DNA of 48,993 bases. Origin: Victivallis vadensis (GTDB lineage: Bacteria; Verrucomicrobiota; Lentisphaeria; Victivallales; GWF2-50-93). A program made the translations under genes and the position numbers. The notes under the pieces were generated by a model that saw nothing but the letters and a program-made list of their open reading frames with translations, was not told where the DNA came from and made no database searches. Location: positions 1 to 48,993 of the forward strand of contig DYRX01000001.1 in NCBI GenBank assembly GCA_020718525.1, read 5' to 3'. Of the stretch, positions 12,617 through 24,869 are shown one piece after another; positions within the stretch are counted from its first letter, which is position 1, and every line of letters starts with the position of its first letter.

Positions 12617-14103
12617 TTTCGGATCACGGCTCCCAGTTCGCGTTTCGAGTACAGCCAGACGAAAAAGACAAATAGGGGAAGCCCCCTGAGGATGAAATAC
12701 TTGAAGAAGGCGACGGCAATCGCGGAATTCTCGATGAGTTCCCCGTCGGAAAGCTTGTCTGAGACGTCGAGGCGCTGGACAGGAACGGCGACCGTCACGA
12801 TGAAGCGGCTGACTTTTTTCCCGACGTAGTCGTGCACCGCCTCGAGGCTTGAGAGATCCAGCTTCTCCTCCATGCCATCGTTGTACATTTCGTCAATCGA
12901 GATCATGTAGTCGGAGAAGACGCCGAAGAGGATGTAGGCGACGCAGATGAAGACGGCGCATGGCATTGAGAATACGCCGCCAAGCGAGCAGGCGAGGGCG
13001 CCCACGAAGAGGAGCTTTATCGAAAGCATTAGTATCGCGCGCAGGAAATTTCCCAGGAAGCTGTCTTTTCTGACTAGCAGTTTTGGTCCGTCTGAGAGCT
13101 GGAAATAGACGGGCTTCTGCCCGAGGTCGTAGTTCGCATACGCTATTGCGACTTTTCCGTCGTCGCCGATGACTTGCGGAGGAATTGGGAACTCGTTGAA
13201 GGCGCCGCCGGCGAAGCGCTCGGGCTCAGGCATGTAAGGAATGAAAACGTATTCGGGTTTTGAGTCGGCAAGATCCGGAGCTTCCTTGCGCATGTCTTCC
13301 ATCATTTTCTCGTTTGTCTTGATCCTGAAAAACCATATTCCGTAGGTTTCTCTCTGTTCTTTCTGTGAAATCTGATCAACGTATGGTCTGAATCTCAGGA
13401 AAACAGGGCGGTCGAGGACTTTCGACACATTTTCATATTCCCAGATTCTTGAGGCGCTGGGACCGAATCTTACTTCGCCAAGCTTTGCCAGAGTCTGCTT
13501 TCTTAGCTGTGCGTCTATGAAAGGCTGAGACTTCATCGGATCGGTAGGATTTGAGGACGGATTGAGGCCGAGCTCCTTCAGCTCTGCGAGGCGCCTTTCA
13601 TACTCCCTTTTGATTTCCGCCTCGACATCTGGCAATTCCGGCATATAGACCCTGCGGCCGACAAATATTTCATGTCTGATCCGTTCCTTGTCCTCCGGAG
13701 AGAATGCTGTGCTGTTGAATTCGTAAAGTATTCTCGCATATGCAATTACACCGCATACCACCAGTAAAAAAAAATGGAGCAGGAAGACTCCAAGGAATTT
13801 CCCGATCCAGATGGAGGTCCTCGAGAGCGGCTTTGTCGAGAGCATGTGCATCTGGTAGTTTTCAATGTCAGAGGAGCAGACAAAGCAGGAGACCCACACA
13901 GTGGAGATTGTAAGAATCATGGTGAGCGCAGTGATGCAGTACTGGATTGAGAGCCTTATGTGTCCGATCGGTGTCCCGTCGTCAAGCACAGTGCCTGGAA
14001 GAACAAGTACGGCGAGCGCCAGCATGAGGAAAAGCATTAGGAAAATCTTTGATCTGAGTGCCATTCTGACAGTGAGCTTGCCTACTGCGAAAAGCGGCAT
14101 CAT
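12613..14103 (-). CDS. ABC-2-like membrane permease with a large (about 230 aa) extracytoplasmic insert
   Basis: 496 aa with about three N-terminal and three C-terminal TM helices flanking a soluble insert. ATGA overlaps with the ABC ATPase upstream and the 544-aa gene downstream. The N-terminus (FAVGKLTVRMALRSKIFLMLFL) is typical of ABC-2 permeases. Confidence 0.6.
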   Translation of the reverse strand: MMPLFAVGKLTVRMALRSKIFLMLFLMLALAVLVLPGTVLDDGTPIGHIRLSIQYCITALTMILTISTVWVSCFVCSSDIENYQMHMLSTKPLSRTSIWIGKFLGVFLLHFFLLVVCGVIAYARILYEFNSTAFSPEDKERIRHEIFVGRRVYMPELPDVEAEIKREYERRLAELKELGLNPSSNPTDPMKSQPFIDAQLRKQTLAKLGEVRFGPSASRIWEYENVSKVLDRPVFLRFRPYVDQISQKEQRETYGIWFFRIKTNEKMMEDMRKEAPDLADSKPEYVFIPYMPEPERFAGGAFNEFPIPPQVIGDDGKVAIAYANYDLGQKPVYFQLSDGPKLLVRKDSFLGNFLRAILMLSIKLLFVGALACSLGGVFSMPCAVFICVAYILFGVFSDYMISIDEMYNDGMEEKLDLSSLEAVHDYVGKKVSRFIVTVAVPVQRLDVSDKLSDGELIENSAIAVAFFKYFILRGLPLFVFFVWLYSKRELGAVIRK

Positions 14104-15266
14104 CGCTTGTCCTCGTTCAATAACTGCGAAATTCGCGAATTTGCGGCGGAGAGATCTTCGGACTCCGGAGATGGAGCCGGAGCATCTTCGCCAAGCCTCT
14201 TGCTGTCGGTTATCTCGCGGATTTTTTTGTCAGCCATCTCTTTTTCGAGAGATTCGGACTTGTCTTTCGCGTCCGTATCTTCGCCTGGAGGCGGTAGTTT
14301 TGAGCTGAGCGCCTCGATAAGCATGTTTCCATCTTTTTTGAGATATTCGGCAATTTCTCCACCGCCCTCCGCGCCATAGGTGCCGGTTTTTTCTTCGCGC
14401 GCCTTTCTGACGACTTCCAGAAAATATTCCTCGAGAGTGCGTCTCGGGTGGTCCACGCTGACAGGGATGCCACCCATGGACTGTGAGATTTCACCGACGA
14501 TTCTGTCTCTGAGGCCGGGTTCGAGCAGTGGTGTCACAATTCTGCTCATTTCCGAGACTGTGAGCAGTTCATCGAGGGTTCCGGACCCTCTTATCTTCCC
14601 TCCGTAAAGTATTATGACTCTGTCGCAGAGATCCTGGACGTCAGCGAGCAGATGACTGCTGATTACGACAGTTTTCCCGCGCGACTTGAGAAATTTGATC
14701 AGATCTTTTATTTCTCTGCATCCGATGGGATCGAGACCGGAAGTGGGTTCGTCGAGGATGAGGAGTTCCGGATCGTTTATCATCGCCTGGGCGAGACCGA
14801 TTCTTCTTGACATGCCTTTTGAAAATTCCCCGAGCCTTCTGTTTCTTGCGTGTGCGAGTCCCACCATGTCTAGGAGCTGTTCTGCGCGCTTCTTCCGTTC
14901 TGCGTGCGGCAGTCCGAATACGGATCCAAAAAAGTCCAGCGTCTCGAAGGCGGTGAGATAGCGGTAGAGATATGACTCTTCAGGCAGATAGCCGATGGCG
15001 GCCTTGGTCTTGACATCGCGCGGAGACTTGCCAAATATGCTCACGGAGCCTCTTGTCGGATAAAGAAGGCCGAGCAGGATCTTGAGAGTTGTTGATTTTC
15101 CCGAGCCGTTGGGACCAAGGAGTCCGAAGACTTCGCCCTCATTTACTTCGAAGTCAATTTCGTTGACGGCCTTGGCTTTCGGCCGGTGCCAGAAGTCGCG
15201 GAACTCCTTGACAAGAGCGACAGCCTTCACAACTGTTTTCTGCGCATCAGCCTTCTTGTCGCTCAT
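14100..15266 (-). CDS. ABC transporter ATP-binding protein with acidic C-terminal extension
   Basis: Walker A GPNGSGKST, signature-like FSKGMSRR, Walker B LLILDEPTSGLD and H-loop ISSHLL. A low-complexity tail of about 130 aa follows. Confidence 0.9.
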   Translation of the reverse strand: MSDKKADAQKTVVKAVALVKEFRDFWHRPKAKAVNEIDFEVNEGEVFGLLGPNGSGKSTTLKILLGLLYPTRGSVSIFGKSPRDVKTKAAIGYLPEESYLYRYLTAFETLDFFGSVFGLPHAERKKRAEQLLDMVGLAHARNRRLGEFSKGMSRRIGLAQAMINDPELLILDEPTSGLDPIGCREIKDLIKFLKSRGKTVVISSHLLADVQDLCDRVIILYGGKIRGSGTLDELLTVSEMSRIVTPLLEPGLRDRIVGEISQSMGGIPVSVDHPRRTLEEYFLEVVRKAREEKTGTYGAEGGGEIAEYLKKDGNMLIEALSSKLPPPGEDTDAKDKSESLEKEMADKKIREITDSKRLGEDAPAPSPESEDLSAANSRISQLLNEDKR

Positions 15267-15868
15267 TTTGAATCTGCGCTCCTTTTAAGTGTTCCGTCGC
15301 GCTTGTAGTATTTTGTTCCTGGCAAGAGTTTTCCGGCGGAATATGTTTTTTCAAACATGGTGGCTTCATTGTCATAGAATTCGATGAAGGCGCCATCAAG
15401 CTCTCCAGCATCGTTGAAGGAGTAGGAGAATTTCTTTTTGCCGTTCTCGTGCCATTCGGTGAACTGTCCGGTCTTTTTTCCGTCCTTAAGAGCTCCCTCG
15501 AGAGCCTTCTGCCCTTTCTTGAACCAGGAGGACAAGGGACCATCGAGTTTTCCGTCCTTGTAGTTGCACTCGACGAGCTTGGAGCCGTCCTTGTAGAACT
15601 CGCGGTATTGTCCGTGTTTGATTTCGGGCTTGAGCCTATAGACAGTGTATTCGGCTTTCAGCTCTTTTCCAGGCTCCGGATAAAAATCCTGTCTTTGTAT
15701 GAATTCGGGGAGGCTTTCCTCCTGTTTTTTTTCGACTTTCGGGCTTTGCGCCTGAAGAATGGGAGGAGGCTTCGGCTTTCCGCTGAAAAGCAGAAAATAA
15801 AGGGCGAGAGCGAGCACAATCAGGAAGACTGCGATTCCAATTATGATCTTTTTATTATTGTCGTCCAT
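15263..15868 (-). CDS. membrane-anchored MORN-variant repeat protein (YwqK-like)
   Basis: N-terminal TM (IIIGIAVFLIVLALALYFLLF). Repeated YKDGKLDGP / KDGKKTGQFTEWHENGKKK / GELDGAFIEFY units follow. Confidence 0.7.
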   Translation of the reverse strand: MDDNNKKIIIGIAVFLIVLALALYFLLFSGKPKPPPILQAQSPKVEKKQEESLPEFIQRQDFYPEPGKELKAEYTVYRLKPEIKHGQYREFYKDGSKLVECNYKDGKLDGPLSSWFKKGQKALEGALKDGKKTGQFTEWHENGKKKFSYSFNDAGELDGAFIEFYDNEATMFEKTYSAGKLLPGTKYYKRDGTLKRSADSK

Positions 15869-15871
15869 TTT

Positions 15872-17461
15872 TCATTCCCCGATATTTAGCTTTTGCCAAC
15901 GGGCTTCGGAAGATGCACCCTTGAGAGTGAGCTTGTATGGAGAACCGAGCGGATTTGCCATTTTCGCCCTGTTTGGATACGATACAGCGCCCGAGCTGTC
16001 TCTTGACGCCGAATTCCACTTTTTCATCAGATCCGTGGATTTTCCGTCAGGAAAAAAGCATGACTGCGGGATGACGGATCTTGACACCGAGGGGCTGGCC
16101 CATTCGAGTTTGCAGAGGGTGAAATGCAGAACCTCGGCAAGGGCGACTTTGATGTCATATTTCTCTCCAGCCTTAAGCTTGACATTGGTCTTTTCGTATT
16201 CTGTTGGCGGCTGTTCCTTCCACCCGTCAATTATAAGATTGCCATTTAGCCAGAGGCGGATGCCGTCGTCGCCTTTGAGATAGAATGTGTATGTATCGGT
16301 CTTTTGAGGAACAAGAGTGCCTGTCCAAATGACTGTCATCAGATTTTCGGGTGTGTTCTCGTGGGGTTTTTCGGTTCGCCAGTCGAAATCAATCTGCGGA
16401 TCAACTCTTGTGAAAGTTGCGCCTTTGGCGGTCATTGTGCTGAAATAGGATGCGTAGAGGCCGCCAAGCCAGTCTCCGCTGTTGCCGGTGTCGCTGTCAT
16501 TGAAATAGGGATGGAACGCCCTGGCCTTTATTGTTGACGCTTTTTCGAGCTTGATCGGAGCGCTGTAGAGCTCGGAGTTTTCATTTGGCTCAGATCCGTC
16601 GCAGGAAAAGCGTATCTCGGAGTCTTCAGTCGCACAGGAGACTGTGATTTCCATTCCGGGCTCGAATTTGACGCCGTCGGGTTCGAAGCTTGGCGTGGCG
16701 CATTTTGGTCTTAAGAATCGCTCGTTGATGCGGTCAAGTCGTTTTTTCTCGGCGGCGGCGATCTTCGCCAGTTCAGCTTCGAGCTCTTTCTTCTGCCATA
16801 TTTGTCCGTTGTGCACAGCCAGATCCTGCCGTGATCGTATGGATTTTTCAAGGAGTCCATTCATTGCATCCTGTCCTTCGGCCTGGAGGGGGAGGGCGGC
16901 GGAATATGTTTTCCTGATTTCTTCGAGGCATGTTTTTTTCAGTTCGGGGTCGCCTATTTTCTGCACCCAGAATGAAATGAGCTTTTCATTGATCGCCGGA
17001 TATTTTGTGTGAATTTCTTCTTTGAGCTCCTTCATGAAACGAAGCTTCTCGTCGTTGTACTTGTTCTTTTCTATTCTTATAATCTGCTTCCTGCGCTCCT
17101 CGTTTTTTTTCGGATCGAGATGGTCGAAGAACGCCGGATCAACGTCAACGACCGGCACGCCTGTCGTCCCGACTCTTATTGTGCGCGAGTCGTGTCCGAG
17201 AAGTTTGCCTTTCGCTATTTTTCCTCTGTAAACTACGGATATCTCCTGTCCTTTTTCGTAGAGGGGACATTCGGTTTCGGATTTTTTCTTCGCTGCATCC
17301 TCGTCAAACGGAGGGTACGTGTCGAGTTTTTGCCTGTAGACGGCTTCTCCCTCGGGAGCGAGGTCGGAGAGCTTCTGTCCAATCAGCCCAAGGGGGAGCG
17401 AAATGGCGGCGAGCGCAAGAACGAGGCGGATTCGTGAAGAGCGTAGGAAAAAAGAACCCAT
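15872..17461 (-). CDS. secreted PA14-domain protein with Fn3-associated (chitobiase C-terminal-like) module
   Basis: Signal peptide present. EITVSCATEDSEIRFSCDGSEPNENSELYSAPIKL is the Fn3-associated motif. PA14 signature: GLYASYF..DFDW..VIWTGTLVPQKTDTYTFYLKGDDGIRLWLNGNLIIDGW. An AGGAGG SD sits in the 11-nt gap upstream. Confidence 0.75.
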   Translation of the reverse strand: MGSFFLRSSRIRLVLALAAISLPLGLIGQKLSDLAPEGEAVYRQKLDTYPPFDEDAAKKKSETECPLYEKGQEISVVYRGKIAKGKLLGHDSRTIRVGTTGVPVVDVDPAFFDHLDPKKNEERRKQIIRIEKNKYNDEKLRFMKELKEEIHTKYPAINEKLISFWVQKIGDPELKKTCLEEIRKTYSAALPLQAEGQDAMNGLLEKSIRSRQDLAVHNGQIWQKKELEAELAKIAAAEKKRLDRINERFLRPKCATPSFEPDGVKFEPGMEITVSCATEDSEIRFSCDGSEPNENSELYSAPIKLEKASTIKARAFHPYFNDSDTGNSGDWLGGLYASYFSTMTAKGATFTRVDPQIDFDWRTEKPHENTPENLMTVIWTGTLVPQKTDTYTFYLKGDDGIRLWLNGNLIIDGWKEQPPTEYEKTNVKLKAGEKYDIKVALAEVLHFTLCKLEWASPSVSRSVIPQSCFFPDGKSTDLMKKWNSASRDSSGAVSYPNRAKMANPLGSPYKLTLKGASSEARWQKLNIGE

Positions 17462-17472
17462 TGTCCCTCCTG

Positions 17473-19404
17473 CTATGCGTTTTCGTTGAAGGTGAGTTCC
17501 TCGCCGGTGCGGACAAGTCTTGCGCTGTTGAAAATGATTATGATGGTGCTTGCCGTGTGGAGAATTGCGGCGGCGATCGGCGGCATCCAGCCGAATACGG
17601 AAAGGCTTATTCCGCCTATGATGAACAGGAAGCCCAGAAAAATGTTCTGGGCGATGATTGCGCTTGACTTGCGCGCAAGAACAATCAGCATGGGGACTCT
17701 ACGCAAGTCGTTTGTCATCAATGCTATAGAGGCGCTGTCAATGGCAATGTCGCTTCCTATCGCACCCATTGCAATTCCAAGGTCGCCCGCTGTAAGCGCA
17801 GGGGCGTCGTTCACTCCATCGCCCACCACTGCGACATGTGAGATTTTCTTCATTTCCTTTACGTACCTGACCTTGTCGTCTGGGAGACACTGGGATCTGA
17901 AGTCACCGATGCCGAGGCTTCTCGCCACGATTTCCGCGACTGAATTTCTGTCTCCAGTGACCATGGAGCAGTTTTTGACGCCTATGTCGAAGAGTCCGCG
18001 TATTGCGTCGTGAGCCTCTTTGCGGACCGTGTCCTTAAAACCGATCCAGCCGATGTTTCGTCCGCCTTTGGAGACATGCACAACGCTCATGACGACATCC
18101 TCGACATCTGTTCCGGGACCTGAGATTGGCGAAGACGATTCGTGAAATTTTTCAACCCACTCCTTTCGACCGATTCTGCAGAGTTCGCCTTTGTAGTCTG
18201 CGCTGACGCCTTTTCCGTGTTCTTCTGCGAAATCGGCGACATCGTCAATTTTGAGACCAGCCTCGGCGGCAAGCTGCTGAAGGGCCTTTGCGGTCGGGTG
18301 ATTGCTGTGCTGTTCGACTGAAGCCGCGATTTTCAGCAGTTCGGCGGGCTGGATGCCTTCGGCTGGTTCAAGTCTGGCGACGGAAAGCTTACCCTCAGTC
18401 AAAGTTCCGGTCTTGTCGAATATCACGGTTCTGATTTTTGCCGCCATTTCGAGATATGAGACGTCTTTTATGAGAATTCCTAGTCTGGCGGCGGCGGCGA
18501 GAGACGCGACGATTGCCGAAGGAGATGCCAGAACAAGCGCACAGGGGCAGGATATGACCAGAATGGCGATCACATTCTCCATTTTTCCCATGAAAAGCCA
18601 GGTGAGTCCGGCGATCATGAGAATCGTCGGCGTATAGAATCCGGCGTATTTGTCTATAAGGCGAATGATGGGGGGGCGACTGCTCTCGGCCGCGAGAATC
18701 AGATCCTGGATTTTGCCAAGTGTCGTGTCGCGTCCAGCCTTGGTGACCTCGATCTCAATGGCGCCTGTCATGTTTTGAGTGCCTGCAAAGACGTCATTTC
18801 CGCATTCCTTTTCTACAGGGAGAGATTCGCCCGTGATTGATGCCTGATTGACTGTGCTGTTGCCTTTTCTGACGACACCGTCAACGGGAAAATTTTCTCC
18901 GGGGCGGATTCGTATGAGATCGCCGACTTTGAGGCTTGCGACATCCGTTTCTATCTCCTGCCCGTCCTCGACTTTTCTTGCGACATGCGGCATGAGCCTG
19001 ATAATTTTCTCGATTGATTTCTGTGCGCCGCTGGCAGTTTTAGTCTCGATGATCACCGAGAGGAGGAGGAAGAAGGAGATGATTCCGGCAGTTCTGAAGT
19101 CGCCTCCTGCCATTGCGGCAAGAACGGCAAGGGAAACCAGCTCGTTCATGTGGATGAGGCCTTTTGCCAGGTCGAAGACTGCAACTTTGAAAAGGGGGAA
19201 CGCCATTATTAGCGCCCCTGCCATGGCGCTGAGATCGGCGGCAAGCGTCTGATCCGGCTGGAGCCAGTTCAGCAAATAGGAGTTGACAATGAAAAACGCT
19301 CCTACGAGAGCGGTACCAAGACGCCCCAGGCTTCTCGGATGCCCGGGATCTTCGGAATCATGGTCGTGCGAATGGCCGCAAAGGCAGACTTTCTTGTCTG
19401 ACAT
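17473..19404 (-). CDS. heavy-metal translocating P1B-type ATPase (Zn/Cd/Co-type), no HMA domain, His-rich N-terminus
   Basis: Motifs: TGES, CPC (ISCPCALVLASP), DKTGTLT and GDGVNDAPAL. The N-terminus reads CLCGHSHDHDSEDPGHP. Confidence 0.9.
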   Translation of the reverse strand: MSDKKVCLCGHSHDHDSEDPGHPRSLGRLGTALVGAFFIVNSYLLNWLQPDQTLAADLSAMAGALIMAFPLFKVAVFDLAKGLIHMNELVSLAVLAAMAGGDFRTAGIISFFLLLSVIIETKTASGAQKSIEKIIRLMPHVARKVEDGQEIETDVASLKVGDLIRIRPGENFPVDGVVRKGNSTVNQASITGESLPVEKECGNDVFAGTQNMTGAIEIEVTKAGRDTTLGKIQDLILAAESSRPPIIRLIDKYAGFYTPTILMIAGLTWLFMGKMENVIAILVISCPCALVLASPSAIVASLAAAARLGILIKDVSYLEMAAKIRTVIFDKTGTLTEGKLSVARLEPAEGIQPAELLKIAASVEQHSNHPTAKALQQLAAEAGLKIDDVADFAEEHGKGVSADYKGELCRIGRKEWVEKFHESSSPISGPGTDVEDVVMSVVHVSKGGRNIGWIGFKDTVRKEAHDAIRGLFDIGVKNCSMVTGDRNSVAEIVARSLGIGDFRSQCLPDDKVRYVKEMKKISHVAVVGDGVNDAPALTAGDLGIAMGAIGSDIAIDSASIALMTNDLRRVPMLIVLARKSSAIIAQNIFLGFLFIIGGISLSVFGWMPPIAAAILHTASTIIIIFNSARLVRTGEELTFNENA

Positions 19405-20558
19405 CAGTTCTCTCCCGCTTTCTTTTCGGCGCCGTCTTTTTTGTAGTCGGGTTCCGGACTCAGCATTATTCTCAGCTCCTGGGTTTCATTTGAGTGCACA
19501 TCGGGAACGATGTATTTGTCTTTTACATCCCGGAGCAGGGAAACCAAGGTCTCGGAGTAGAGCGGTATGATTACAGACTCGGGATTTTTCCTGTATTCGA
19601 CGAGGATTTTTTCGAAGTACTTGGACTCCGACTCGATTTCGGAGACTGTCCTGCTTCTATAAACTTCGGCATCAACGATTATTTCGCGGCTTTCGGTTTC
19701 CGATTCCTGAGCGGATTTGAAGGAGTAGTTGATAGCCTTCAGCTTTGCGCTGGAGCTCTCCTGCTCGGCGTTGATCACGTCATGGAAGGCGGAAACTGTG
19801 CTGAATGGAGGAGTCTTCGATTTGAGGACGGCGGAACTGAGCTCGACTCCCGCATTTAATGCCTGGAATGCGGAGGCGATTCTGCGGCTCACGTCCTCTT
19901 GGTAGCCTGTCACATCCTTGTAGAGCGTGTTCTCCACTTTTTGAACCGCTGTCGCCTTGATGATTTCATTCTCGACAATAGAAGCCAGGGTCGTCCGCGG
20001 TCCGCGCGTTCCTGCAGATCTTCCGTCGTCCCTCAAGACAGGCTCGTCCTCGGAGCGTGGATCCTGGGGGCAGAACAGCTTGCTGTAGTATGCGAGAGGA
20101 TCTTTCACTTCATAGACTATTTCCCATTCGGTGTGGACGATGTTTGCATCGCCAGTGAGAAGCGAGCCGTCACGTCCGGGCATGATGGGCACCGCCATTT
20201 TGCTGAGGGCATCCTGCTCGTCGGTCATTGAGACATCTGGATTGGGCCAGAAATTTTTTATCTGCATGACCTGCCTGCTGGTTGGGATTCTTACAATTCT
20301 GCTGACGGGATACGGGAAAGCCCAGTGCCAGTCTTCGGTGAAGACTTCGCTTATTTTTCCGAATCTGAGAAGGATCACAGCCTCCTGCGGGTCGACAGTG
20401 AAATATCCGAGGAAGGTGAAATACCAGGCGACAGTCCCCATGACGAAGAGCGTGAGCAGGGCGACGACGTATCGAAAGGATCTTGCCAGCGCGTTCAGGC
20501 CGGAGCCGATTCCGCTCTCCCTTTCCAAGGACTCTTTTTCGTTGTTTTCCAAAATCAT
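19404..20558 (-). CDS. SPFH/band-7 protein, HflK-like
   Basis: 384 aa with a single N-terminal TM and an SPFH core (VDPQEAVILLRFGKISEVF..). Its stop TGA (19406-19404) shares one nt with the ATPase ATG. Confidence 0.7.
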   Translation of the reverse strand: MILENNEKESLERESGIGSGLNALARSFRYVVALLTLFVMGTVAWYFTFLGYFTVDPQEAVILLRFGKISEVFTEDWHWAFPYPVSRIVRIPTSRQVMQIKNFWPNPDVSMTDEQDALSKMAVPIMPGRDGSLLTGDANIVHTEWEIVYEVKDPLAYYSKLFCPQDPRSEDEPVLRDDGRSAGTRGPRTTLASIVENEIIKATAVQKVENTLYKDVTGYQEDVSRRIASAFQALNAGVELSSAVLKSKTPPFSTVSAFHDVINAEQESSSAKLKAINYSFKSAQESETESREIIVDAEVYRSRTVSEIESESKYFEKILVEYRKNPESVIIPLYSETLVSLLRDVKDKYIVPDVHSNETQELRIMLSPEPDYKKDGAEKKAGEN

Positions 20559-20592
20559 TTTCTCTCTTTCCGCTGTGACGGAGGAATTTTAG

Positions 20593-21570
20593 CTACTTTG
20601 ATGTTCCCGGCGCATCGTCATTCTTGAGCGGTGCCTTCAGCCCCATCGCCGGATCGTCCATGTTCAGGAGATCGAATGGCGGATAGCGCGTATTGAGGAT
20701 GAGTGTCGTTTTCTTGGGCATGATTTTGCGCAGTGAGTCGAGTTTTCTGAGGAAGTCCGCGAGAGCCGGATCCTGCTTGAATACAGAGTAGTAGGAGGCG
20801 GCCTTTGCATCGCCCTCGGCTCGTATGCGCTTTGCCTCAGCTTCCGCGTCGGCAATCTTGAGTTTCTTCTTGTTGTCCGCCTCGTTTATGATCTGCTTGG
20901 AGATGTTTTCGCCCTGCGAACGGTAGTGCTGAGCGACTATAGCCCTCTCCTCCTTCATCCTTTCAAAAACTTTTTCGGAAGTTTTTTCAGGCACTGCAAC
21001 TTGTTTGAATCCTATCTCTTCGACCGCGATGCCGTAGTCCTTCAGCGCGCTGTCCTTCACTCCGGCAAGAATTTCCTTCTCTATCTCGGAGATCTTCATC
21101 TTCTTCGGATCCGTGTTGATGAATTCGTCGAACTTGTACTTGCCAACAATCGCGTTTCTGACGCTTCTGACAAGGGAATTGAGCCTGTCTTCGGCGGAAA
21201 TAAATGTGCCGACATTTTTATAGAGAACGTCCGGTCTTTCGATTTTGTAGAGGCAATATGTGCTGATAATGAGATTTTTGGCATCCGCCGTGTAGGTTTC
21301 TTCGATTTTTCCGCTAGAGCCGGCAAAACAGCGCAGGCGATTGTCGAATTTTATGACCTTCTGTATCGGATAGGGCCATTTGAAATGGAGACCGGCTTCC
21401 TTTATTCCGCTTATTTTACCGAAAGTGGTCAGAACTGCGGTTTCAGTTGAATCCACCTGATAGCAGAATATCGCCGCCAAAAAAATCGTCAGCACCAACA
21501 ATCCCAAAAATAGCGATGGGATATGGCTGACTGCACCAGTTTTTTCAATTTCATGCTTGTGTTCGCTCAT
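20593..21570 (-). CDS. SPFH/band-7 protein, HflC-like
   Basis: 325 aa with an N-terminal TM, an SPFH core (VDSTETAVLTTFGKISGIKEAGLHFKWPYPIQKV) and a coiled-coil tail (ADAEAEAKRIRAEGDAKAA). Confidence 0.8.
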   Translation of the reverse strand: MSEHKHEIEKTGAVSHIPSLFLGLLVLTIFLAAIFCYQVDSTETAVLTTFGKISGIKEAGLHFKWPYPIQKVIKFDNRLRCFAGSSGKIEETYTADAKNLIISTYCLYKIERPDVLYKNVGTFISAEDRLNSLVRSVRNAIVGKYKFDEFINTDPKKMKISEIEKEILAGVKDSALKDYGIAVEEIGFKQVAVPEKTSEKVFERMKEERAIVAQHYRSQGENISKQIINEADNKKKLKIADAEAEAKRIRAEGDAKAASYYSVFKQDPALADFLRKLDSLRKIMPKKTTLILNTRYPPFDLLNMDDPAMGLKAPLKNDDAPGTSK

Positions 21571-21585
21571 ATTTTCGACTCCGTT

Positions 21586-23505
21586 TTATTTTTTCGTGCC
21601 GGAACTTCCGCCAGAGATGTCCACCAAATCCGCCTCCATCAGATCCAGCCGCGCCTTTTCCTCGAAATTAAGGATGAAGACGTTGTGCGGTATGGAACTC
21701 GCTATGACGAGCTTTCTTATCATCTTGCAGTCGTTCTCGAAGAAGTCCAGATAATGTCTGAGTCTGAACATCTGGGGCATGCGCCTGTAGGCATCAAGCT
21801 GTTTGAGGAAACGGGCATTCTCGGCTTCTGCAAGCTTCTCAGCGTTGGTCGCTCCAGTCTTGCTGTCGAGAATGATCCTGGCGACCTCGCTTTCGATCTC
21901 GTTGGCAAGTTTGGACTCGTATTTTTTGGCGGAAAGAATCTTTGTCTCCTTCTCTTCCAGTGCGCCGACGACCTCCTGAAACGACGGGGCGACCTGTTCA
22001 GTTGGCGGATGCGAATCGAGAAAATTCAGGGAAACAATTTCCACGCCCAGCTTCAGCCTGTCGCAAGCGCCTTGGAGAATTCTATGGAGATCTCCGATCA
22101 TCATGCTTCTGTCAAGCGACATCGCCTTTATGATGTCAACCGACGCGAGATACTTGCCAATTTCCTGTTCTGCAAGATCCTTGAGAATCTCAGGGCTGTC
22201 TCTGTGCATGTAGGCGTAGTCAATGAGCCCGCCTTCCTTTATCTTGAACTGGATTGGAAACGCCGCAGCCAAGAATGAGACCGGGGCATCGTCTCCTGAG
22301 ACCTCCTTCGCTGAAGCCACAAGGAAGCGAGGCTCCTTCGCGTAATGCTGTTTTGTCCAGAGAATCACCTCGGGAAGCTCCTTCCTGCCCTTTTCCTCCT
22401 TGAATTCGGGTCCAATGACAATCTCCTGAATTTTACGGACTGGGAATCTTGATATTTTTTCGACAGGCCAAGGCGCTTTGAAATGGATTCCCGGCTGAAG
22501 AAGAGGTGAATCCTGGCGCTTTCCGAAAAATTCCCTGACGCCCACTTCGTCGGTTTTCACTTCGACGATGCTGGTGAAAAGCCAGAGCGCGCCAAGCCAG
22601 ACGAGCAAAATTGGAACAAGAGCCGACTCGGCGAAATTGAAGAGCTCCCTGCGCCCGACGCGGAAGCCGAACTGATACTCGAGCGTGTCAAAAAGCCCCT
22701 TGGCCAGCCCGCCAGGATCCGATGCTATGGAAAGAAGCCTGCTCTCGAAAAACAAAGAATCGTCTCCTGCCCGCTTCGGGCGGTAGAACTCGACAATGAA
22801 GTTCAACAGCAGTTCGGCGGCAAGAATCACATATACGATCAGAAGGAACTTTGCCGTCCTGCCGTCCCAGGCGGTGTAGGCGAACTTGGAGAGAAGAATG
22901 GAGAGAGATACGAGCATTCCCATGCCAAAGACGGCGACGAGCCAGCTTCCGGCCGGACGCAGGGTTCTGAACGATCTGGACTTCGACTGGCCAACAAGAA
23001 AAATTCCTGCGAAGAGCGAAACTATGGAAAGCAGAGCCGATGCGAATGCGCATTGCAGAGCGTTGCGGGGCTCCAGAGGCTTCAGCCTCGCACCCCAATG
23101 CTTCCAAAATAGATAGGAGAGGCCGAGGAGCGCGATGAACTCCGCCAGCGCAATCGCGTAGGGAGAATATTTCTTGTATAGCCTCAATGCCCTCTGAGAA
23201 AGGAAAAGCGCGTCCACGTCCGCGTCAAGCGCCATCTTTTCGCGCCTCTTCTCGATGGCAACCCTCTCCTCCTCCTCCTTGGAGGAATTCTCCTCGAAAT
23301 GTCCAATGATGGCGGAATTGATCAAAAGCAGGAAGGCTACAATAAAGGGGATAGAGAGGGCGGCGAAGGAGTCGAATGCGACTAGTCCCGAACTCCAGGT
23401 GAAAAAGACCAGGCCTGCTGACAGCAGTGAAAGGATGGCGCATACGACCGAAAGCTTCCTGAGCAGTCTAGACTCCTCGCTCCAAATTTGAAGATTTCTG
23501 TCCAT
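21586..23505 (-). CDS. polytopic membrane protein (about 7 TM) with C-terminal SPFH/HflK-like domain
   Basis: 639 aa. Multiple hydrophobic helices occupy the first 315 aa. Then VKTDEVGVREFFGKRQDSPLLQPGIHFKAPWPVEKI, an SPFH core, and a coiled-coil tail. Confidence 0.7.
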   Translation of the reverse strand: MDRNLQIWSEESRLLRKLSVVCAILSLLSAGLVFFTWSSGLVAFDSFAALSIPFIVAFLLLINSAIIGHFEENSSKEEEERVAIEKRREKMALDADVDALFLSQRALRLYKKYSPYAIALAEFIALLGLSYLFWKHWGARLKPLEPRNALQCAFASALLSIVSLFAGIFLVGQSKSRSFRTLRPAGSWLVAVFGMGMLVSLSILLSKFAYTAWDGRTAKFLLIVYVILAAELLLNFIVEFYRPKRAGDDSLFFESRLLSIASDPGGLAKGLFDTLEYQFGFRVGRRELFNFAESALVPILLVWLGALWLFTSIVEVKTDEVGVREFFGKRQDSPLLQPGIHFKAPWPVEKISRFPVRKIQEIVIGPEFKEEKGRKELPEVILWTKQHYAKEPRFLVASAKEVSGDDAPVSFLAAAFPIQFKIKEGGLIDYAYMHRDSPEILKDLAEQEIGKYLASVDIIKAMSLDRSMMIGDLHRILQGACDRLKLGVEIVSLNFLDSHPPTEQVAPSFQEVVGALEEKETKILSAKKYESKLANEIESEVARIILDSKTGATNAEKLAEAENARFLKQLDAYRRMPQMFRLRHYLDFFENDCKMIRKLVIASSIPHNVFILNFEEKARLDLMEADLVDISGGSSGTKK

Positions 23506-23739
23506 AAGCCCCTTATAAGTTCCTGCAACAAAGAGACACGCCCCGCCCGCAAGGACACGGATGCATACAAATTCACACGCCTACGCGCAAATTGCCTCGA
23601 AATATCGCATTGCAACGAAAAAAATCAATAGGAAAACTGAAATACGGCGTTTTATTTTTGAGATGCAGAGGACTTCGACGGACACCTCACTTAATAGAAC
23701 GTCAAACATTTTCCTGCCAGATCGTTTTATTGGCGGGAA

Positions 23740-24672
23740 TCAGACTGCACCTGGCAATGACTGTTTGCATGGGGTGGACCGATCGCCAAGCTCAAACTGT
23801 AGCGTGGCATGGCATATTCCAAAGCGTTCATGGAGTTCGTTGCTGATTTCAGCAAGAAGCGCATCGTCAACGACAGCGTCCGGCTTCACCAGGTGCGCTG
23901 TCAATGCCACTTCAGTCGTGCTTATGGCCCAGATATGCAGATCATGTACCGCACTGACCCCAGGAAGAGCTTCGAGGTAGGCGGCGACTTCAGCAGGCTG
24001 TATATTTTCTGGAACGGCATCAAGCGCAAGCCTGAGCGATTCGCGCAGAAGCCCCCAAGTTCCGAAGCCGATGACAAGAGATATTGCAAGGCTCACTGCG
24101 GGATCCAGGAAAAGCCATCCCGTGAGACTCATTGCAATTGCCGCGATGACGACTCCAAATGAGACTCCCGCATCTGCCGCCATATGCAGATAGGCGCCAC
24201 GGATATTTACGTCCTGCTCTTTGCCCGACATGAACATGTATGCTGTGAACCCGTTGACAAGGATTCCGACGGAGGCAACAACGATGACCGAAGCGCTCGC
24301 GACTGTTTCAGGATGAACAATTCTGAGGATGGATTCCCAGGCGATGCCACCAACGGCAAGGAGCAGGATAACACAATTAGCCAATGCCGCCAAAACAGAA
24401 CTTCGTCGCAGACCATAGGTGTAGCGCAACGTCGGATGCCTTTGAGCCAGGACGCTGGCGCCCCATGCCAGCAGAAGCCCAAAAACATCGCCGAGATTGT
24501 GTCCGGCATCCGCCAAGAGAGAAAGAGAATTGGAAAGTAGGGCAACAATAGCCTCAACTGCAACGAAAGCAACATTGATCCCGACTCCGACAGCAAAGGC
24601 GCGGTTAAAATTTTTGGGAGCATGACTGTGTCCAGATTCCTCTCCATCTGCGTGGGAATGACTGTGCCCCAT
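23740..24672 (-). CDS. cation diffusion facilitator (CDF) metal exporter, CzcD/ZitB-like
   Basis: His-rich N-terminus MGHSHSHADGEESGHSH. TM2 LLADAGHNLGD and TM5 HMAADAG metal-site motifs. The ATG at 24672 is preceded by AAGGAGG; the track ORF extends to 24738. Confidence 0.9.
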   Translation of the reverse strand: MGHSHSHADGEESGHSHAPKNFNRAFAVGVGINVAFVAVEAIVALLSNSLSLLADAGHNLGDVFGLLLAWGASVLAQRHPTLRYTYGLRRSSVLAALANCVILLLAVGGIAWESILRIVHPETVASASVIVVASVGILVNGFTAYMFMSGKEQDVNIRGAYLHMAADAGVSFGVVIAAIAMSLTGWLFLDPAVSLAISLVIGFGTWGLLRESLRLALDAVPENIQPAEVAAYLEALPGVSAVHDLHIWAISTTEVALTAHLVKPDAVVDDALLAEISNELHERFGICHATLQFELGDRSTPCKQSLPGAV

Positions 24673-24869
24673 TAGATGTCCTCCTTTTTTTGTAGAACTT
24701 GAGATTGCCAAACGAGTTATATTGAGACGGGATGTCAAGTGTTGAACTTTATCTCACACGAAGACAATAAGCGCCTGAAGCAAAGAAAAGCCTTGCCGGT
24801 TTGATACTCGCCCATTGTGGTGCATATAATACATGAAATAATCCAATTAAACACTGACAGACGGACAAA

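What the first reader, a model, noticed from the sequence alone, without database searches (positions are those of the whole stretch)
17473..23505. Three consecutive SPFH/band-7 paralogues translationally coupled to a heavy-metal P1B-ATPase
Seen: a 639-aa protein (about seven TM helices plus an SPFH domain), an HflC-like 325-aa protein and an HflK-like 384-aa protein follow each other with 15- and 34-nt gaps. The stop of the third (TGA 19406-19404) shares one base with the ATG of the CPC-type metal ATPase (TGATG). Known: HflK/HflC build a membrane cage around the FtsH protease, and SPFH operons typically carry NfeD. Here there is no FtsH, HflX or NfeD. The coupled gene is a metal pump, and a CDF exporter lies 235 nt upstream. 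Inference: this may be an SPFH microdomain or cage dedicated to a metal-efflux pump (assembly, turnover or gating), which would be a new client class. The polytopic SPFH fusion is itself unusual.
Basis: partly seen in the sequence, partly recalled or inferred. Interest (0 to 1): 0.7.

Follow-up and report, generated by a model that had tools for sequence, protein, structure and literature searches.

The report
Conserved SPFH-trio and metal-ATPase cassette
Three membrane-scaffold (SPFH/HflK-HflC-like) genes and a distinct heavy-metal P-type ATPase form a tightly coupled four-gene cassette, kept together from Lentisphaerota to Proteobacteria, which suggests a scaffold or cage dedicated to a metal pump rather than to the FtsH protease.

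Summary

S1-S2-S3-ATPase is contiguous in 61 of 66 species-level genomes. It persists down to 24-25% S1 identity with unrelated flanks, usually -4 to +3 nt apart. The same cassette sits on alpha-, beta- and gammaproteobacterial plasmids.

The cassette ATPases form their own P1B clade (50/50 bootstraps; TM4 CPC, TM6 LH(T/N/A)xST).

Corrections:
- The upstream CDF gene is not conserved (0 of 90 loci).
- An ABC-2 transporter usually follows the ATPase.
- "Efflux" is unproven. The cassette matches, by published gene order and annotation, the Zur-regulated P. aeruginosa hmtA locus (PA2439-PA2435), which is induced by zinc starvation.

Independent support: a separate, widespread family fuses an intact CDF zinc-exporter domain directly to HflK in the same K-C-K trio. 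S1's N-domain resembles only CDF folds but lacks the metal ligands.

Best reading: an HflK/C-type assembly built around a metal pump. Physical association is inferred, not shown.

The parts
21586..23505 (-). S1: 639-aa polytopic HflK-like SPFH protein, the first gene of the cassette
   Evidence: ORF. Band_7 at residues 315-528. TIGR01933 HflK 86.8 bits, below the 159.4 cutoff. The AF2 model has an SPFH domain, a long coiled-coil helix (506-575) and C-terminal strands; top Foldseek hits are HflK/C structures 7vhq, 9cz2 and 7wi3. 59 close homologues and at least 596 species genomes carry a relative.
22588..23505 (-). S1 N-terminal 7-TM domain (residues 1-306). It has no Pfam family. It is CDF-like in fold but lacks the CDF metal ligands. 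It includes an invariant loop between TM6 and TM7 (FYRPR...FESRLL...EPGG...LDYQFGF).
   Evidence: TM scan. Conservation in A1 and A3. No Pfam hit. Domain-only AF2: pLDDT 82, pTM 0.80. In Foldseek only CDF transporters (YiiP, ZnT1, ZnT4, ZnT10) reach TM 0.36-0.51; everything else is 0.26 or less. hhalign against the N-domains of CDF::SPFH fusions gives P 4.7e-4, against 0.2-0.3 for reversed controls. The profile finds 1021 clusters, and in full-length top-150 hits the domain is always the N-terminus of a 600-770 aa protein; shorter entries look like fragments.
20593..21570 (-). S2: HflC-like SPFH protein with a single N-terminal TM
   Evidence: Band_7 6.3e-24. TIGR01932 HflC 134.7 bits against a cutoff of 134.4. 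Best PDB relative is E. coli HflC. BLASTP matches to the middle gene of the CDF::SPFH trios, 140-183 bits.
19404..20558 (-). S3: HflK-like SPFH protein with a single N-terminal TM
   Evidence: Band_7 7.1e-15. TIGR01933 98.5 bits, below the 159.4 cutoff. Best PDB relative is E. coli HflK.
19402..19406 (-). TGATG stop/start overlap between S3 and the ATPase, with a GGGAGAG Shine-Dalgarno-like stretch 5 nt upstream
   Evidence: Sequence. In related loci the S3-ATPase spacing is -4 to +3 nt in 45 of 61.
17473..19404 (-). Cassette-type P1B ATPase. It has a His/Cys-rich N-tail (CLCGHSHDHDSEDPGH), no HMA domain, TM4 SCPC and TM6 LHTAST.
   Evidence: It sits in a clade with all cassette ATPases from the PVC group and Proteobacteria, 50/50 NJ bootstraps, separate from ZntA-like, P1B-4-like and CopA-like pumps.
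14100..15266 (-). ABC ATPase (DrrA/GldA-like). It is the usual next gene after the cassette ATPase in relatives.
   Evidence: Pfam and NCBIfam. ABC ATPase + ABC-2 permease + p544 follow the ATPase in 43 of 52 loci that have room.
12613..14103 (-). ABC-2-type permease (496 aa) with a 227-aa loop between TM3 and TM4. Conserved downstream partner.
10982..12616 (-). p544: an N-terminally anchored protein with no recognised family. Conserved third gene of the ABC module.
   Evidence: No hit in Pfam, NCBIfam or the PDB. Conserved position.
15263..17461 (-). PA14/CHB_HEX_C protein (17461..15872) and MORN-repeat protein (15868..15263). They are a lineage-specific insertion between the ATPase and the ABC module, not part of the conserved system.
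   Evidence: Pfam. Absent from this position in all 90 related loci.
23740..24738 (-). Canonical CDF exporter (ZitB/CzcD-like, with ZT_dimer). It is a neighbour in this contig only.
   Evidence: Pfam and NCBIfam. No homologue in any of the 90 related loci. A terminator-like hairpin lies at 23559..23537, between it and S1.

Best explanation
The four genes are one functional cassette. S1, S2 and S3 (HflK'-HflC-HflK'') build a hetero-oligomeric HflK/C-type SPFH assembly on the periplasmic face of the inner membrane. Its dedicated partner is the co-translated P1B ATPase, not FtsH, or not only FtsH.

S1 contributes a 7-TM domain to the membrane ring. It looks like a degenerate CDF transporter domain (six helices plus the HflK anchor helix) that has lost its metal site. 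I propose that this pseudo-transporter, with its invariant cytoplasmic loop, docks or stabilises the ATPase.

The pump belongs to a distinct P1B clade (CPC in TM4, LH(T/N/A)xST in TM6, a His/Cys-rich tail instead of HMA), most likely handling a Zn-like divalent metal. By analogy with all structurally characterised P1B pumps and with the CDF-fused sister system, it moves metal from the cytoplasm into the membrane patch and periplasmic space bounded by the SPFH assembly.

The physiological role is probably controlled metal handling linked to zinc status, as at the Zur-regulated Pseudomonas hmtA locus, rather than bulk detoxification.

Shown: gene content, order, coupling, conservation, the ATPase clade and the existence of CDF::HflK fusions.
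Predicted: topology and folds.
Inferred: physical complex, cage, docking role of S1, substrate and direction.
For: 1. Conserved contiguity. 61 of 66 species-representative loci have S1-S2-S3-ATPase. Of 76 informative loci overall, 69 show it by tblastn, and L009/L010 add two by Pfam. All 9 independent context look-ups show the ATPase in the cluster. These include Verrucomicrobia, Kiritimatiellia, Lentisphaera araneosa (S1 24% identical) and the most divergent homologues (25-29%), each with unrelated flanks. L175 is rearranged, yet the ATPase stays 1.6 kb away.
2. Coupling. The median S3-ATPase gap is 2 nt, and 45 of 61 loci lie between -4 and +3. The window has TGATG.
3. The same cassette, with 4-nt overlaps, is on Klebsiella, Paraburkholderia, Rhizobium and Burkholderia plasmids, some flanked by IS elements. 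It therefore moves as a unit.
4. Cassette ATPases from the PVC group and Proteobacteria are monophyletic (50/50) and share TM4/TM6 signatures.
5. Independent fusion evidence. CDF TMD::HflK proteins number 1498 hits, and 119 of the 120 listed carry both Pfam domains. The HxxxD/HxxxD metal-site histidines are invariant. They head the same K-C-K trio in 50 of 51 loci, with ZntA-like or P1B-4-like ATPases within about 4-11 kb in 18 of 27.
6. S1 N-domain. Only CDF folds match it. hhalign gives P 4.7e-4 against controls of 0.2-0.3. The S1 N-domain HMM hits a CDF fusion at 1.6e-4 in an 8-sequence search, against 0.8-0.9 for negative controls.
7. Topology is consistent with HflK/C: N-in, an odd number of TM helices, SPFH domain outside. 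All the elements that build the cage in HflK/C (SPFH, coiled coil, C-terminal strands) are modelled.
8. Some genomes carry two S1 cassettes (L013/L049), and one of them (L016/L018) also carries a CDF trio. That argues against a single housekeeping HflKC.
9. Literature. PA2437-PA2439 (HflC/HflK family) and hmtA are co-induced 5.6-14.4-fold in a znuA mutant (PMC4542158). Zur binds the PA2439 promoter (PMC8531726). The proteins rise under Zn depletion (PMC11761036).
10. Precedent for an operon-encoded scaffold needed by a P1B pump: PacL1/CtpC (PMC9374683, PMC13043812).
Against: - There is no physical or expression evidence for this organism.
- Five of 66 loci break the pattern. L035 has a Ser/Thr kinase after S3. 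A rumen clade (L061, L067, L074, L077) has S1 alone, followed by a DEAD helicase.
- S2 just reaches the HflC equivalog cutoff (134.7 against 134.4), so an FtsH link is not excluded.
- About 7 of 69 cassette ATPases lost the second CPC cysteine, the TM6 histidine and/or the His-rich tail while keeping all catalytic motifs. The partnership therefore may not depend on soft-metal transport.
- The CDF-likeness of S1 rests on weak statistics: Foldseek E 0.06-0.8, TM 0.51 or less, hhalign probability 32%, no Pfam hit, ligands absent.
- A P. aeruginosa PaFlo5-6-7 triple deletion showed only subtle phenotypes, though it was not tested under metal stress (PMC13086221).
- Overexpressed HmtA alone already changes metal content, according to reviews (PMC10393844). 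The SPFH proteins are therefore not strictly required for transport.
- HmtA was reported as an importer, which conflicts with the export direction assumed here.
- I could not verify by sequence that PA2435-PA2439 is this cassette.
Confidence: 0.6

Rival explanations
1. Housekeeping HflK/HflC. S2 and S3 (with S1 as a lineage-specific HflK variant) are these bacteria's ordinary FtsH modulators. They are linked to the ATPase only because the pump is an FtsH quality-control substrate, or through operon history.
For: S2 passes TIGR01932 (HflC) marginally. The best solved relatives are E. coli HflC and HflK. NCBI names family members 'protease modulator HflK'. hflKC is not adjacent to ftsH in E. coli either (established knowledge), so the absence of ftsH in the window proves nothing.
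Against: There are three paralogues, not two. S1 and S3 fall well below the HflK equivalog cutoff. Some genomes carry two S1 cassettes, and one also carries a CDF trio. The cassette is mobile on plasmids of Proteobacteria, whose chromosomes generally carry canonical hflKC (established knowledge for E. coli and relatives, not checked for these hosts). P. aeruginosa has a separate hflK-hflC operon in addition to PaFlo5-7 (PMC13086221). The ATPase clade co-evolves with the trio.
Confidence: 0.12
2. A co-regulated cassette without a complex. The SPFH trio and the pump are independent responses to the same signal (zinc limitation, or metal or envelope stress). They are kept in one operon for co-expression only.
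For: At the Pseudomonas locus all genes respond together to Zn depletion through Zur (PMC4542158, PMC8531726, PMC11761036). HmtA overexpressed on its own alters cellular metal (PMC10393844). The PaFlo5-7 mutant is nearly wild type (PMC13086221). Downstream ABC genes are also conserved, which suggests a larger operon with mixed functions.
Against: Start/stop overlaps are preserved across phyla. The four genes transfer horizontally as a unit. There is a dedicated ATPase clade. In the sister system the transporter is covalently fused to the SPFH protein, which is hard to explain by co-regulation alone.
Confidence: 0.2
3. A zinc/copper acquisition module. The cassette ATPase works like the reported HmtA, importing Zn2+/Cu2+ under scarcity, and the SPFH assembly supports uptake. 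The reader's 'efflux' label would then be wrong, although the SPFH-pump partnership would stand.
For: HmtA was described as an importer and is induced in a znuA mutant (PMC8456098, PMC4542158). The Paraburkholderia cassette lies next to a znuABC-like zinc uptake system and a PCu(A)C chaperone. The Klebsiella copy lies near a DUF4198 protein.
Against: The reviews themselves say the import direction needs confirmation (PMC10393844). All P1B pumps whose mechanism has been solved structurally are exporters (established knowledge; closest structures). The parallel CDF::HflK system uses an exporter family with an intact site. In the window the neighbour is a CDF exporter. I could not verify by sequence that HmtA belongs to the cassette clade.
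Confidence: 0.25

Closest known systems
E. coli HflK/HflC-FtsH complex (PDB 7vhq, 7wi3, 9cz2)
   Same: S1, S2 and S3 are HflK-, HflC- and HflK-like by sequence and predicted fold: N-in membrane anchor, SPFH domain, long coiled coil, C-terminal strands. Alternating K and C paralogues are encoded side by side.
   Different: There are three paralogues instead of two. The first carries a 300-aa polytopic domain. Only S2 reaches an equivalog cutoff, and only just. The conserved, translationally coupled partner gene is a P1B ATPase. No FtsH link is known or testable here.
P. aeruginosa hmtA locus PA2439-PA2434 (PaFlo5-7 + HmtA)
   Same: The published gene order is HflK-family, HflC, HflC-family, (PA2436), then the P1B ATPase HmtA. 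This matches the cassette found here on proteobacterial plasmids and in the window. The genes are co-induced under Zn limitation and bound by Zur (PMC4542158, PMC8531726, PMC11761036, PMC13086221).
   Different: Equivalence rests on published annotation and order, not on a sequence comparison made here. An extra gene (PA2436) intervenes. The papers read here treat the SPFH genes as unexplained neighbours and HmtA as an importer. Regulation in Lentisphaerota is unknown.
M. tuberculosis PacL1/CtpC metal efflux platforms ('effluxosomes')
   Same: A P1B ATPase depends on a small operon-encoded membrane scaffold or chaperone that clusters it into high-molecular-weight membrane platforms (PMC9374683, PMC13043812). 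This is the same logic as proposed here.
   Different: PacL proteins are DUF1490 proteins, not SPFH. Those platforms are explicitly independent of flotillin. There is no homology to S1-S3.
CDF transporters (YiiP, CzcD, ZnT)
   Same: The S1 N-domain has a six-helix bundle that matches only CDF structures in the PDB. The sister family has a genuine CDF domain at the same position.
   Different: S1 has no Pfam Cation_efflux match, no HxxxD/DxxxD metal site and no cytoplasmic ZT_dimer domain. It has an extra conserved loop and a seventh helix.
SPFH-NfeD operons (QmcA-YbbJ, stomatin PH1511-PH1510) and eukaryotic stomatin-channel/transporter complexes
   Same: SPFH oligomers are encoded with, or bound to, a specific membrane partner. 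Stomatin binds and modulates channels and transporters (for example the AQP1 complex 9zd2; AE1 in PMC5383999).
   Different: There is no NfeD here. The lineage is HflK/C, not stomatin or flotillin. The partner is a primary active metal pump.

Membership tests
SPFH / Band_7 superfamily | Pfam PF01145 domain above the gathering score | tested here: met
   S1 43.2 bits, S2 85.4 bits, S3 55.9 bits, against a cutoff of 23.6. Fold match to HflK/C, prohibitin, erlin and stomatin.
HflC (FtsH modulator, equivalog TIGR01932 / NF008259) | Score above the curated equivalog cutoff | tested here: inconclusive
   S2 scores 134.7 against 134.4 for TIGR01932 (a bare pass), but 83.7 against 427 for NF008259.
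HflK (FtsH modulator, equivalog TIGR01933 / NF008181) | Score above the curated equivalog cutoff | tested here: not met
   S3 scores 98.5 and S1 86.8 against a cutoff of 159.4. For NF008181 they score 57 and 52 against 660.
HflK/HflC-FtsH complex | Physical association with, and modulation of, the FtsH protease | not testable with these tools
   There is no ftsH in the window, but adjacency is not a defining feature in E. coli either.
P1B-type (heavy-metal) P-type ATPase | DKTGT phosphorylation site, TGES, the HP motif of the N-domain, CPx in the metal-binding TM helix, and the TIGR01525 cutoff | tested here: met
   DKTGT, TGES, SNHP, GDGVNDAP and SCPC are present. TIGR01525 548 bits against 346.
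P1B subgroups of known specificity (CopA/P1B-1, ZntA/P1B-2, P1B-4) | Subgroup TM5/TM6 signatures: YN + MxxSS; K + DxG; SPC + HEGxT | tested here: not met
   TM5 reads QN with no K or YN. TM6 reads LH(T/N/A)xST. ZntA and CopA equivalogs are far below cutoff. It is about equally distant from CopA, sCoaT and ZntA structures. It forms a separate clade, 50/50.
hmtA-type cassette (long HflK - HflC - SPFH - P1B ATPase) | Gene order and tight coupling; the ATPase belongs to the cassette clade | tested here: met
   Window. PVC loci. Proteobacterial plasmids. ATPase clade.
hmtA-type cassette | Sequence orthology to P. aeruginosa PA2435-PA2439, and Zur/zinc-limitation control | not testable with these tools
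   No P. aeruginosa sequence was reachable: not among the top 120, and no Pseudomonas plasmid hit. No palindrome was found upstream of S1. The link rests on PMC4542158, PMC8531726 and PMC11761036.
Cation diffusion facilitator (for the S1 N-domain) | Pfam Cation_efflux match and the TM2/TM5 (H/D)xxxD metal site | tested here: not met
   No Pfam hit even at E 10. The positions aligned to HxxxD carry other residues (G-A-W) in S1. By contrast H40 and H145 are invariant in true CDF::HflK fusions.
Cation diffusion facilitator (for the S1 N-domain) | Six-helix CDF transmembrane fold | tested here: inconclusive
   CDF structures are the only hits with TM 0.36-0.51, but E is 0.06-0.8. hhalign gives P 4.7e-4 with probability 32%. 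The HMM hits a fusion at 1.6e-4 in an 8-sequence search.
SPFH-NfeD operon | An NfeD gene adjacent to the SPFH gene | tested here: not met
   No NfeD domain in the window ORFs or in the called genes of related loci.
Anti-phage defence systems (PADLOC) | A match to any PADLOC model | tested here: not met
   No hits for S1, S2, S3, the ATPase, the ABC-2 permease or p544.

The most novel reading that the evidence does not exclude
HflK/C-type cages form bounded periplasmic 'metal vaults'. A family of SPFH trios either carries an exporter in its own subunits (intact CDF::HflK fusions) or recruits a dedicated pump (the cassette P1B ATPase, docked by S1's degenerate CDF domain). Zn-like metal is released into a closed membrane and periplasmic nano-compartment rather than into the bulk periplasm. 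It could then be retained and handed to exported proteins. The PpiD-like chaperones encoded beside 26 of 27 CDF trios point to maturation of secreted proteins. This would matter most under zinc scarcity, and would also explain why HmtA looked like an 'importer' when expressed without its cage.
Probability: 0.2. Interest if true: 0.85.

Novelty: new variant of a known kind. Interest (0 to 1): 0.7.

Why it matters
SPFH cages (HflK/C, prohibitin, stomatin, erlin, flotillin) now have structures, but bacterial clients other than FtsH are scarce.

Three findings here would give the field a genetically defined client class, a primary or secondary metal transporter, in organisms that include tractable Pseudomonas and Enterobacteriaceae:
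- a four-gene cassette that travels as a unit between phyla;
- its own ATPase clade;
- a sister family in which the transporter is fused to the SPFH protein.

For metal homeostasis, it offers a concrete and testable explanation for two unexplained points. One is the HflC/HflK genes of the Zur-regulated hmtA locus. The other is the disputed direction and role of HmtA.

It also shows that annotation pipelines currently label hundreds of transporter-SPFH fusions simply as 'FtsH protease activity modulator HflK'.

Tried and rejected
1. The first genome scan with the single S1 protein found no confirmed relative. The alignment-based scan then worked.
2. The CDF gene as part of the system was rejected. 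It has no homologue in 90 related loci.
3. Anti-phage defence was rejected (PADLOC, no hits).
4. One-to-one orthology of S1 and S3 with the two K paralogues of the CDF trios was not supported. F1 and F3 group together (100), and S1 joins them at 93, so the K duplications may be independent.
5. PpiD-like PPIase or LGT as partners of the S1 cassette was rejected. They accompany the CDF trios, not the S1 cassettes.
6. The ABC-2 permease and p544 could not be identified. Pfam, NCBIfam and the PDB by sequence gave nothing useful beyond weak GldA/GldF-like similarity.
7. The promoter/terminator scan was uninformative. The consensus is sigma-70 type, promoter counts were at shuffle level, and no terminator-like hairpin maps to a gap between the four genes.
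8. The search for an operator palindrome upstream of S1 found none.
9. I tried to reach P. aeruginosa HmtA or PA2439 by sequence. The last homology search returned only Enterobacteriaceae at 64% identity or more. No Pseudomonas plasmid carries the cassette. The Lewinson 2009 paper is not held.
10. Literature searches for an SPFH link to CDF or P1B transporters found no paper proposing one.

Full report
**1. The observation**

The minus strand carries four genes in a row.
- S1: 23505..21586, 639 aa.
- S2: 21570..20593, 325 aa.
- S3: 20558..19404, 384 aa.
- A P-type ATPase: 19404..17473, 643 aa.

The gaps are 15 and 34 nt. The last junction is a one-base overlap, GGGAGAGAACTGATG.

All three upstream proteins have Pfam Band_7 domains. 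The ATPase has E1-E2_ATPase and Hydrolase domains. A hydropathy scan gives S1 seven TM segments before residue 306, and S2 and S3 one each.

S2 is closest to E. coli HflC and S3 to E. coli HflK. Against NCBIfam, S2 barely reaches the HflC equivalog cutoff (134.7 against 134.4). S1 and S3 are far below the HflK cutoff.

The ATPase passes the P1B model TIGR01525 (548 against 346). It carries SCPC, DKTGT, TGES, HP and GDGVNDAP, plus a His/Cys-rich N-tail with no HMA domain.

A canonical CDF gene ends 234 nt upstream of S1. No FtsH, HflX or NfeD domain occurs in the window's larger ORFs.

The contig looks like an ordinary chromosomal stretch of a Lentisphaerota MAG. Its relatives are Lentisphaeria and Victivallaceae.

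**2. Conservation of the linkage**

S1 has 59 close homologues. An alignment-derived motif found relatives in at least 596 species-level genomes.

I ran tblastn of the window proteins against 90 fetched loci.
- S1-S2-S3-ATPase is contiguous in 61 of 66 species-representative loci that have enough downstream DNA.
- The S3-ATPase spacing is -4 to +3 nt in 45 of these 61.
- The flanks differ completely between lineages.

The order persists in more distant lineages:
- a Verrucomicrobia MAG (S1 30% identical);
- Kiritimatiellia (32%);
- Lentisphaera araneosa HTCC2155 (24%);
- the most divergent homologues found (25-29%).

One locus is rearranged, yet the ATPase remains 1.6 kb away.

There are exceptions. 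In L035 a Ser/Thr kinase follows S3. In a rumen clade S1 stands alone before a DEAD-box helicase.

**3. What else is, and is not, conserved**

The CDF gene has no counterpart in any of the 90 loci. It is a local neighbour only.

Three genes follow the ATPase in 43 of 52 loci with room: an ABC ATPase, an ABC-2 permease and an unassignable anchored protein of about 540 aa. In the window a PA14 protein and a MORN protein are inserted between the ATPase and this module.

Basal lineages carry a further ABC-2 membrane gene that overlaps the S1 start. I could not assign a substrate to this transporter.

**4. The ATPase**

Across 69 orthologues the catalytic motifs are invariant. TM4 is (A/S)CPC and TM6 is AAxLH(T/A/N)xST...FNSARL. 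Most have CxCGHDH-type His/Cys-rich tails.

TM5 and TM6 lack the diagnostic residues of CopA, ZntA and P1B-4 pumps. The protein is about equally distant from solved CopA, sCoaT and ZntA.

About seven lineages have lost one or more of the second Cys (CPG, CPV or CPL), the TM6 His (Y or Q) and the His-rich tail. They keep every catalytic motif and keep the cassette. This is unexplained and cautions against equating the partnership with soft-metal transport.

**5. The cassette outside the PVC group**

tblastn against plasmids found the same four genes on four proteobacterial plasmids. The order is a long polytopic 'HflK' of 568-672 aa, HflC, an SPFH protein and a cation-translocating P-type ATPase. 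Most junctions overlap by 4 nt.
- Klebsiella aerogenes pYD-K10_1.
- A Paraburkholderia sprentiae megaplasmid, next to a znuABC-like system and PCu(A)C.
- A Rhizobium tumorigenes plasmid.
- An IS-flanked site on a Burkholderia ubonensis plasmid.

Their ATPases share CPC and LHNxST.

In an NJ tree, all cassette ATPases from the PVC group and Proteobacteria form one clade in 50 of 50 bootstraps. They are separate from the ZntA-like (CPC/ADTGA), P1B-4-like (SPC/HEGST) and CopA-like pumps found elsewhere in the fetched loci.

The S1 N-domain HMM weakly detects three of the four proteobacterial long-HflK N-domains: 9e-6, 7e-3 and 7e-3 in an 8-sequence search. BLASTP aligns S1 residues 201-580 to the Klebsiella protein, including the AAE(L/F)LL helix and the following loop.

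The cassette is thus an ancient, horizontally mobile unit with its own pump lineage.

**6. Link to published work**

The P. aeruginosa literature describes a locus PA2439 (HflK family) - PA2438 (HflC) - PA2437 (HflC family) - ... - PA2435 (hmtA).
- All of these genes are induced 5.6-14.4-fold in a znuA mutant (PMC4542158, Table 2).
- Zur binds the PA2439 promoter (PMC8531726).
- The proteins rise under zinc depletion (PMC11761036).
- A 2026 survey names three SPFH proteins encoded in one operon PaFlo5-7 (apparently this locus; the locus-tag mapping was not checked). It finds only subtle phenotypes for the triple deletion, with no metal conditions tested (PMC13086221).
- HmtA is described as an atypical P1B importer of Zn and Cu, a property that reviewers say needs confirmation (PMC8456098, PMC10393844).

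Gene order and annotation match the cassette, but I could not obtain the Pseudomonas sequences to verify orthology.

I found no paper that proposes a structural or functional SPFH-pump unit, or that mentions SPFH-CDF fusions.

The nearest functional precedent is the mycobacterial PacL1/CtpC 'metal efflux platform'. There an operon-encoded non-SPFH scaffold stabilises a P1B pump independently of flotillin (PMC9374683, PMC13043812).

**7. An independent sister system**

Directly upstream of one Victivallis cassette lies a second trio. Its first gene is a 509-aa protein with a genuine Pfam Cation_efflux transmembrane domain fused to Band_7. Two more Band_7 genes, a PPIase and an HMA-type P1B ATPase follow.

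This fusion is widespread.
- 1498 hits at E 1e-10 or better. Of the 120 listed, 119 have both domains.
- They come from Kiritimatiellota, Planctomycetota, Omnitrophota, Chloroflexota and other MAGs.
- Sources name them 'FtsH protease activity modulator HflK'.

The CDF site-A histidines are invariant and the aspartates nearly so. It is therefore presumably an active exporter that has traded its cytoplasmic domain for a seventh helix and a periplasmic SPFH domain.

In 80 metagenomic loci:
- the order CDF::K - C - K holds in 50 of 51;
- a PpiD-like PPIase is adjacent in 26 of 27 well-flanked loci;
- a P1B ATPase lies within about 4-11 kb in 18 of 27, of ZntA-like or P1B-4-like type.

Other metal genes (mer, YHS, a second CDF) recur.

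S2 clearly matches the middle gene of these trios (140-183 bits). The K-type paralogues do not resolve one to one.

**8. The S1 N-domain**

It has no Pfam family, but it is strongly conserved. The invariant residues are E231, E254-S255-R256 and Y277-Q278-F279-G280.

A profile search of 1.84 billion representatives finds 1021 clusters. In the full-length hits among the top 150 the domain is at the N-terminus of 600-770 aa proteins, that is, always fused to SPFH. These include Planctomycetota.

AF2 models it confidently: pLDDT 82, pTM 0.80.

In Foldseek searches of the PDB the only matches above TM 0.3 are CDF transporters, for both models:
- full-length model: YiiP is the first non-SPFH hit, E 8.5e-3;
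- domain model: YiiP, ZnT1, ZnT4 and ZnT10 at TM 0.36-0.51, all other hits 0.26 or less, but E only 0.06-0.8.

Profile-profile comparison with the fusion family's CDF domain aligns TM4-TM6 with P 4.7e-4. One-side-reversed controls and unrelated membrane profiles give 0.006-0.39 over short stretches.

S1 lacks the HxxxD ligands.

Given the identical architecture (six helices + anchor helix + HflK) and the identical trio, I consider it more likely than not (about 0.55) that S1 is a degenerate CDF::HflK fusion. This is not proven.

**9. Mechanism**

My committed reading is this. S1, S2 and S3 assemble into an HflK/C-type ring or cage with periplasmic SPFH domains. The topology is consistent with N-in and an odd number of helices, and all the elements that build the cage in HflK/C are modelled.

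The cassette ATPase is its dedicated partner. It is inserted co-translationally next to S1, whose pseudo-transporter domain and invariant cytoplasmic loop serve as the docking surface.

By analogy with the CDF-fused sister system and with all mechanistically solved P1B pumps, metal is exported into the space bounded by the assembly.

The Pseudomonas data suggest the module serves zinc-status-dependent metal handling rather than detoxification.

Rivals:
- housekeeping HflKC-FtsH (0.12);
- co-regulation without a complex (0.2);
- an import or acquisition module (0.25), which keeps the SPFH-pump partnership but reverses the direction.

**10. Verdict**

It is a conserved, mobile four-gene cassette with its own P1B clade, backed by an independent transporter-SPFH fusion family.

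It is partly anticipated by Pseudomonas omics tables but has no mechanistic description. The 'efflux' label and the CDF neighbour should be dropped.

Novelty: a new variant of a known kind (an SPFH scaffold with a new client class). Interest 0.7.

**Limits**
- All synteny statistics rest on my tblastn and ORF heuristics.
- The trees are neighbour-joining only.

Noticed in passing
L018:1308-2837 (also L091-L173): A widespread, undescribed fusion of an intact CDF (Cation_efflux) transmembrane domain to an HflK-like SPFH domain. It always heads a K-C-K trio and almost always lies beside a PpiD-like PPIase. Databases name these proteins 'FtsH protease activity modulator HflK'.
   Followed up: yes
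ATPase orthologues in L009, L037, L056, L072, L080, L084, L089 (and L175): These lineages lost one or more of the presumed metal ligands: CPC becomes CPG, CPV, CPL or CPA; the TM6 His becomes Y, Q or N; the His-rich N-tail is gone. All catalytic motifs and the SPFH cassette are retained. The substrate or role of these variants is unexplained.
   Followed up: partly
window 10982-15266 (minus strand); L003-L090 downstream of the ATPase: An ABC ATPase, a large-loop ABC-2 permease and an unassignable anchored protein of about 540 aa follow the cassette in 43 of 52 loci. Basal lineages add an ABC-2 membrane gene that overlaps the S1 start. The substrate is unknown.
   Followed up: partly
window 15263-17461 (minus strand): A PA14/CHB_HEX_C protein and a MORN-repeat protein sit between the ATPase and the ABC module, 11 nt after the ATPase stop. 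No related locus has this insertion.
   Followed up: partly
L061, L064, L067, L074, L077 (rumen Lentisphaeria); L035: In a rumen clade a full-length S1 stands alone and is followed by a DEAD-box helicase. In L035 a 922-aa Ser/Thr kinase replaces the ATPase after S3. Whether S2, S3 and the ATPase lie elsewhere in those genomes is unknown.
   Followed up: partly
window 9968-10978 (minus strand); L001, L011, L013-L016, L019, L033, L035 upstream of S1: A 336-aa Ser/Thr protein kinase (53-58% identical across loci) is the divergent upstream neighbour of S1 in one subclade. In the window it lies just downstream of the ABC module. It may be a recurrent regulatory partner.
   Followed up: no
L093:11005-12999 (and L093:5001-6974, L018:63-1274, L018:5502-7508): PpiD-like PPIases flank the CDF::SPFH trios on one or both sides. 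One carries a His/Cys/Asp-rich segment (HAQCRRHGEDHEDCGTDEACETFPDC) near its membrane anchor, which suggests metal binding.
   Followed up: no
L177 (Klebsiella pYD-K10_1), L180 (Burkholderia pMSMB2035): The four-gene cassette sits on conjugative plasmids. The Burkholderia copy is flanked by IS5, IS110 and IS66 elements, and the Klebsiella copy lies near a Tn3 transposase. The module is therefore horizontally mobile. Close ATPase homologues also occur in Salmonella, Citrobacter, Raoultella and Kosakonia.
   Followed up: partly
window 23537-23559 (minus strand): A terminator-like GC-rich hairpin followed by a T-rich tail lies about 30 nt upstream of the S1 start, between the CDF gene and S1. It could end the CDF transcript or be a regulatory element.
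   Followed up: no
window 24870-25637; 37475-38401; 47704-48894: A secreted caspase-like Peptidase_C14 protein lies upstream of the CDF gene. The contig also carries two MoxR-type AAA_3 ATPases. Neither is related to the finding.
   Followed up: no
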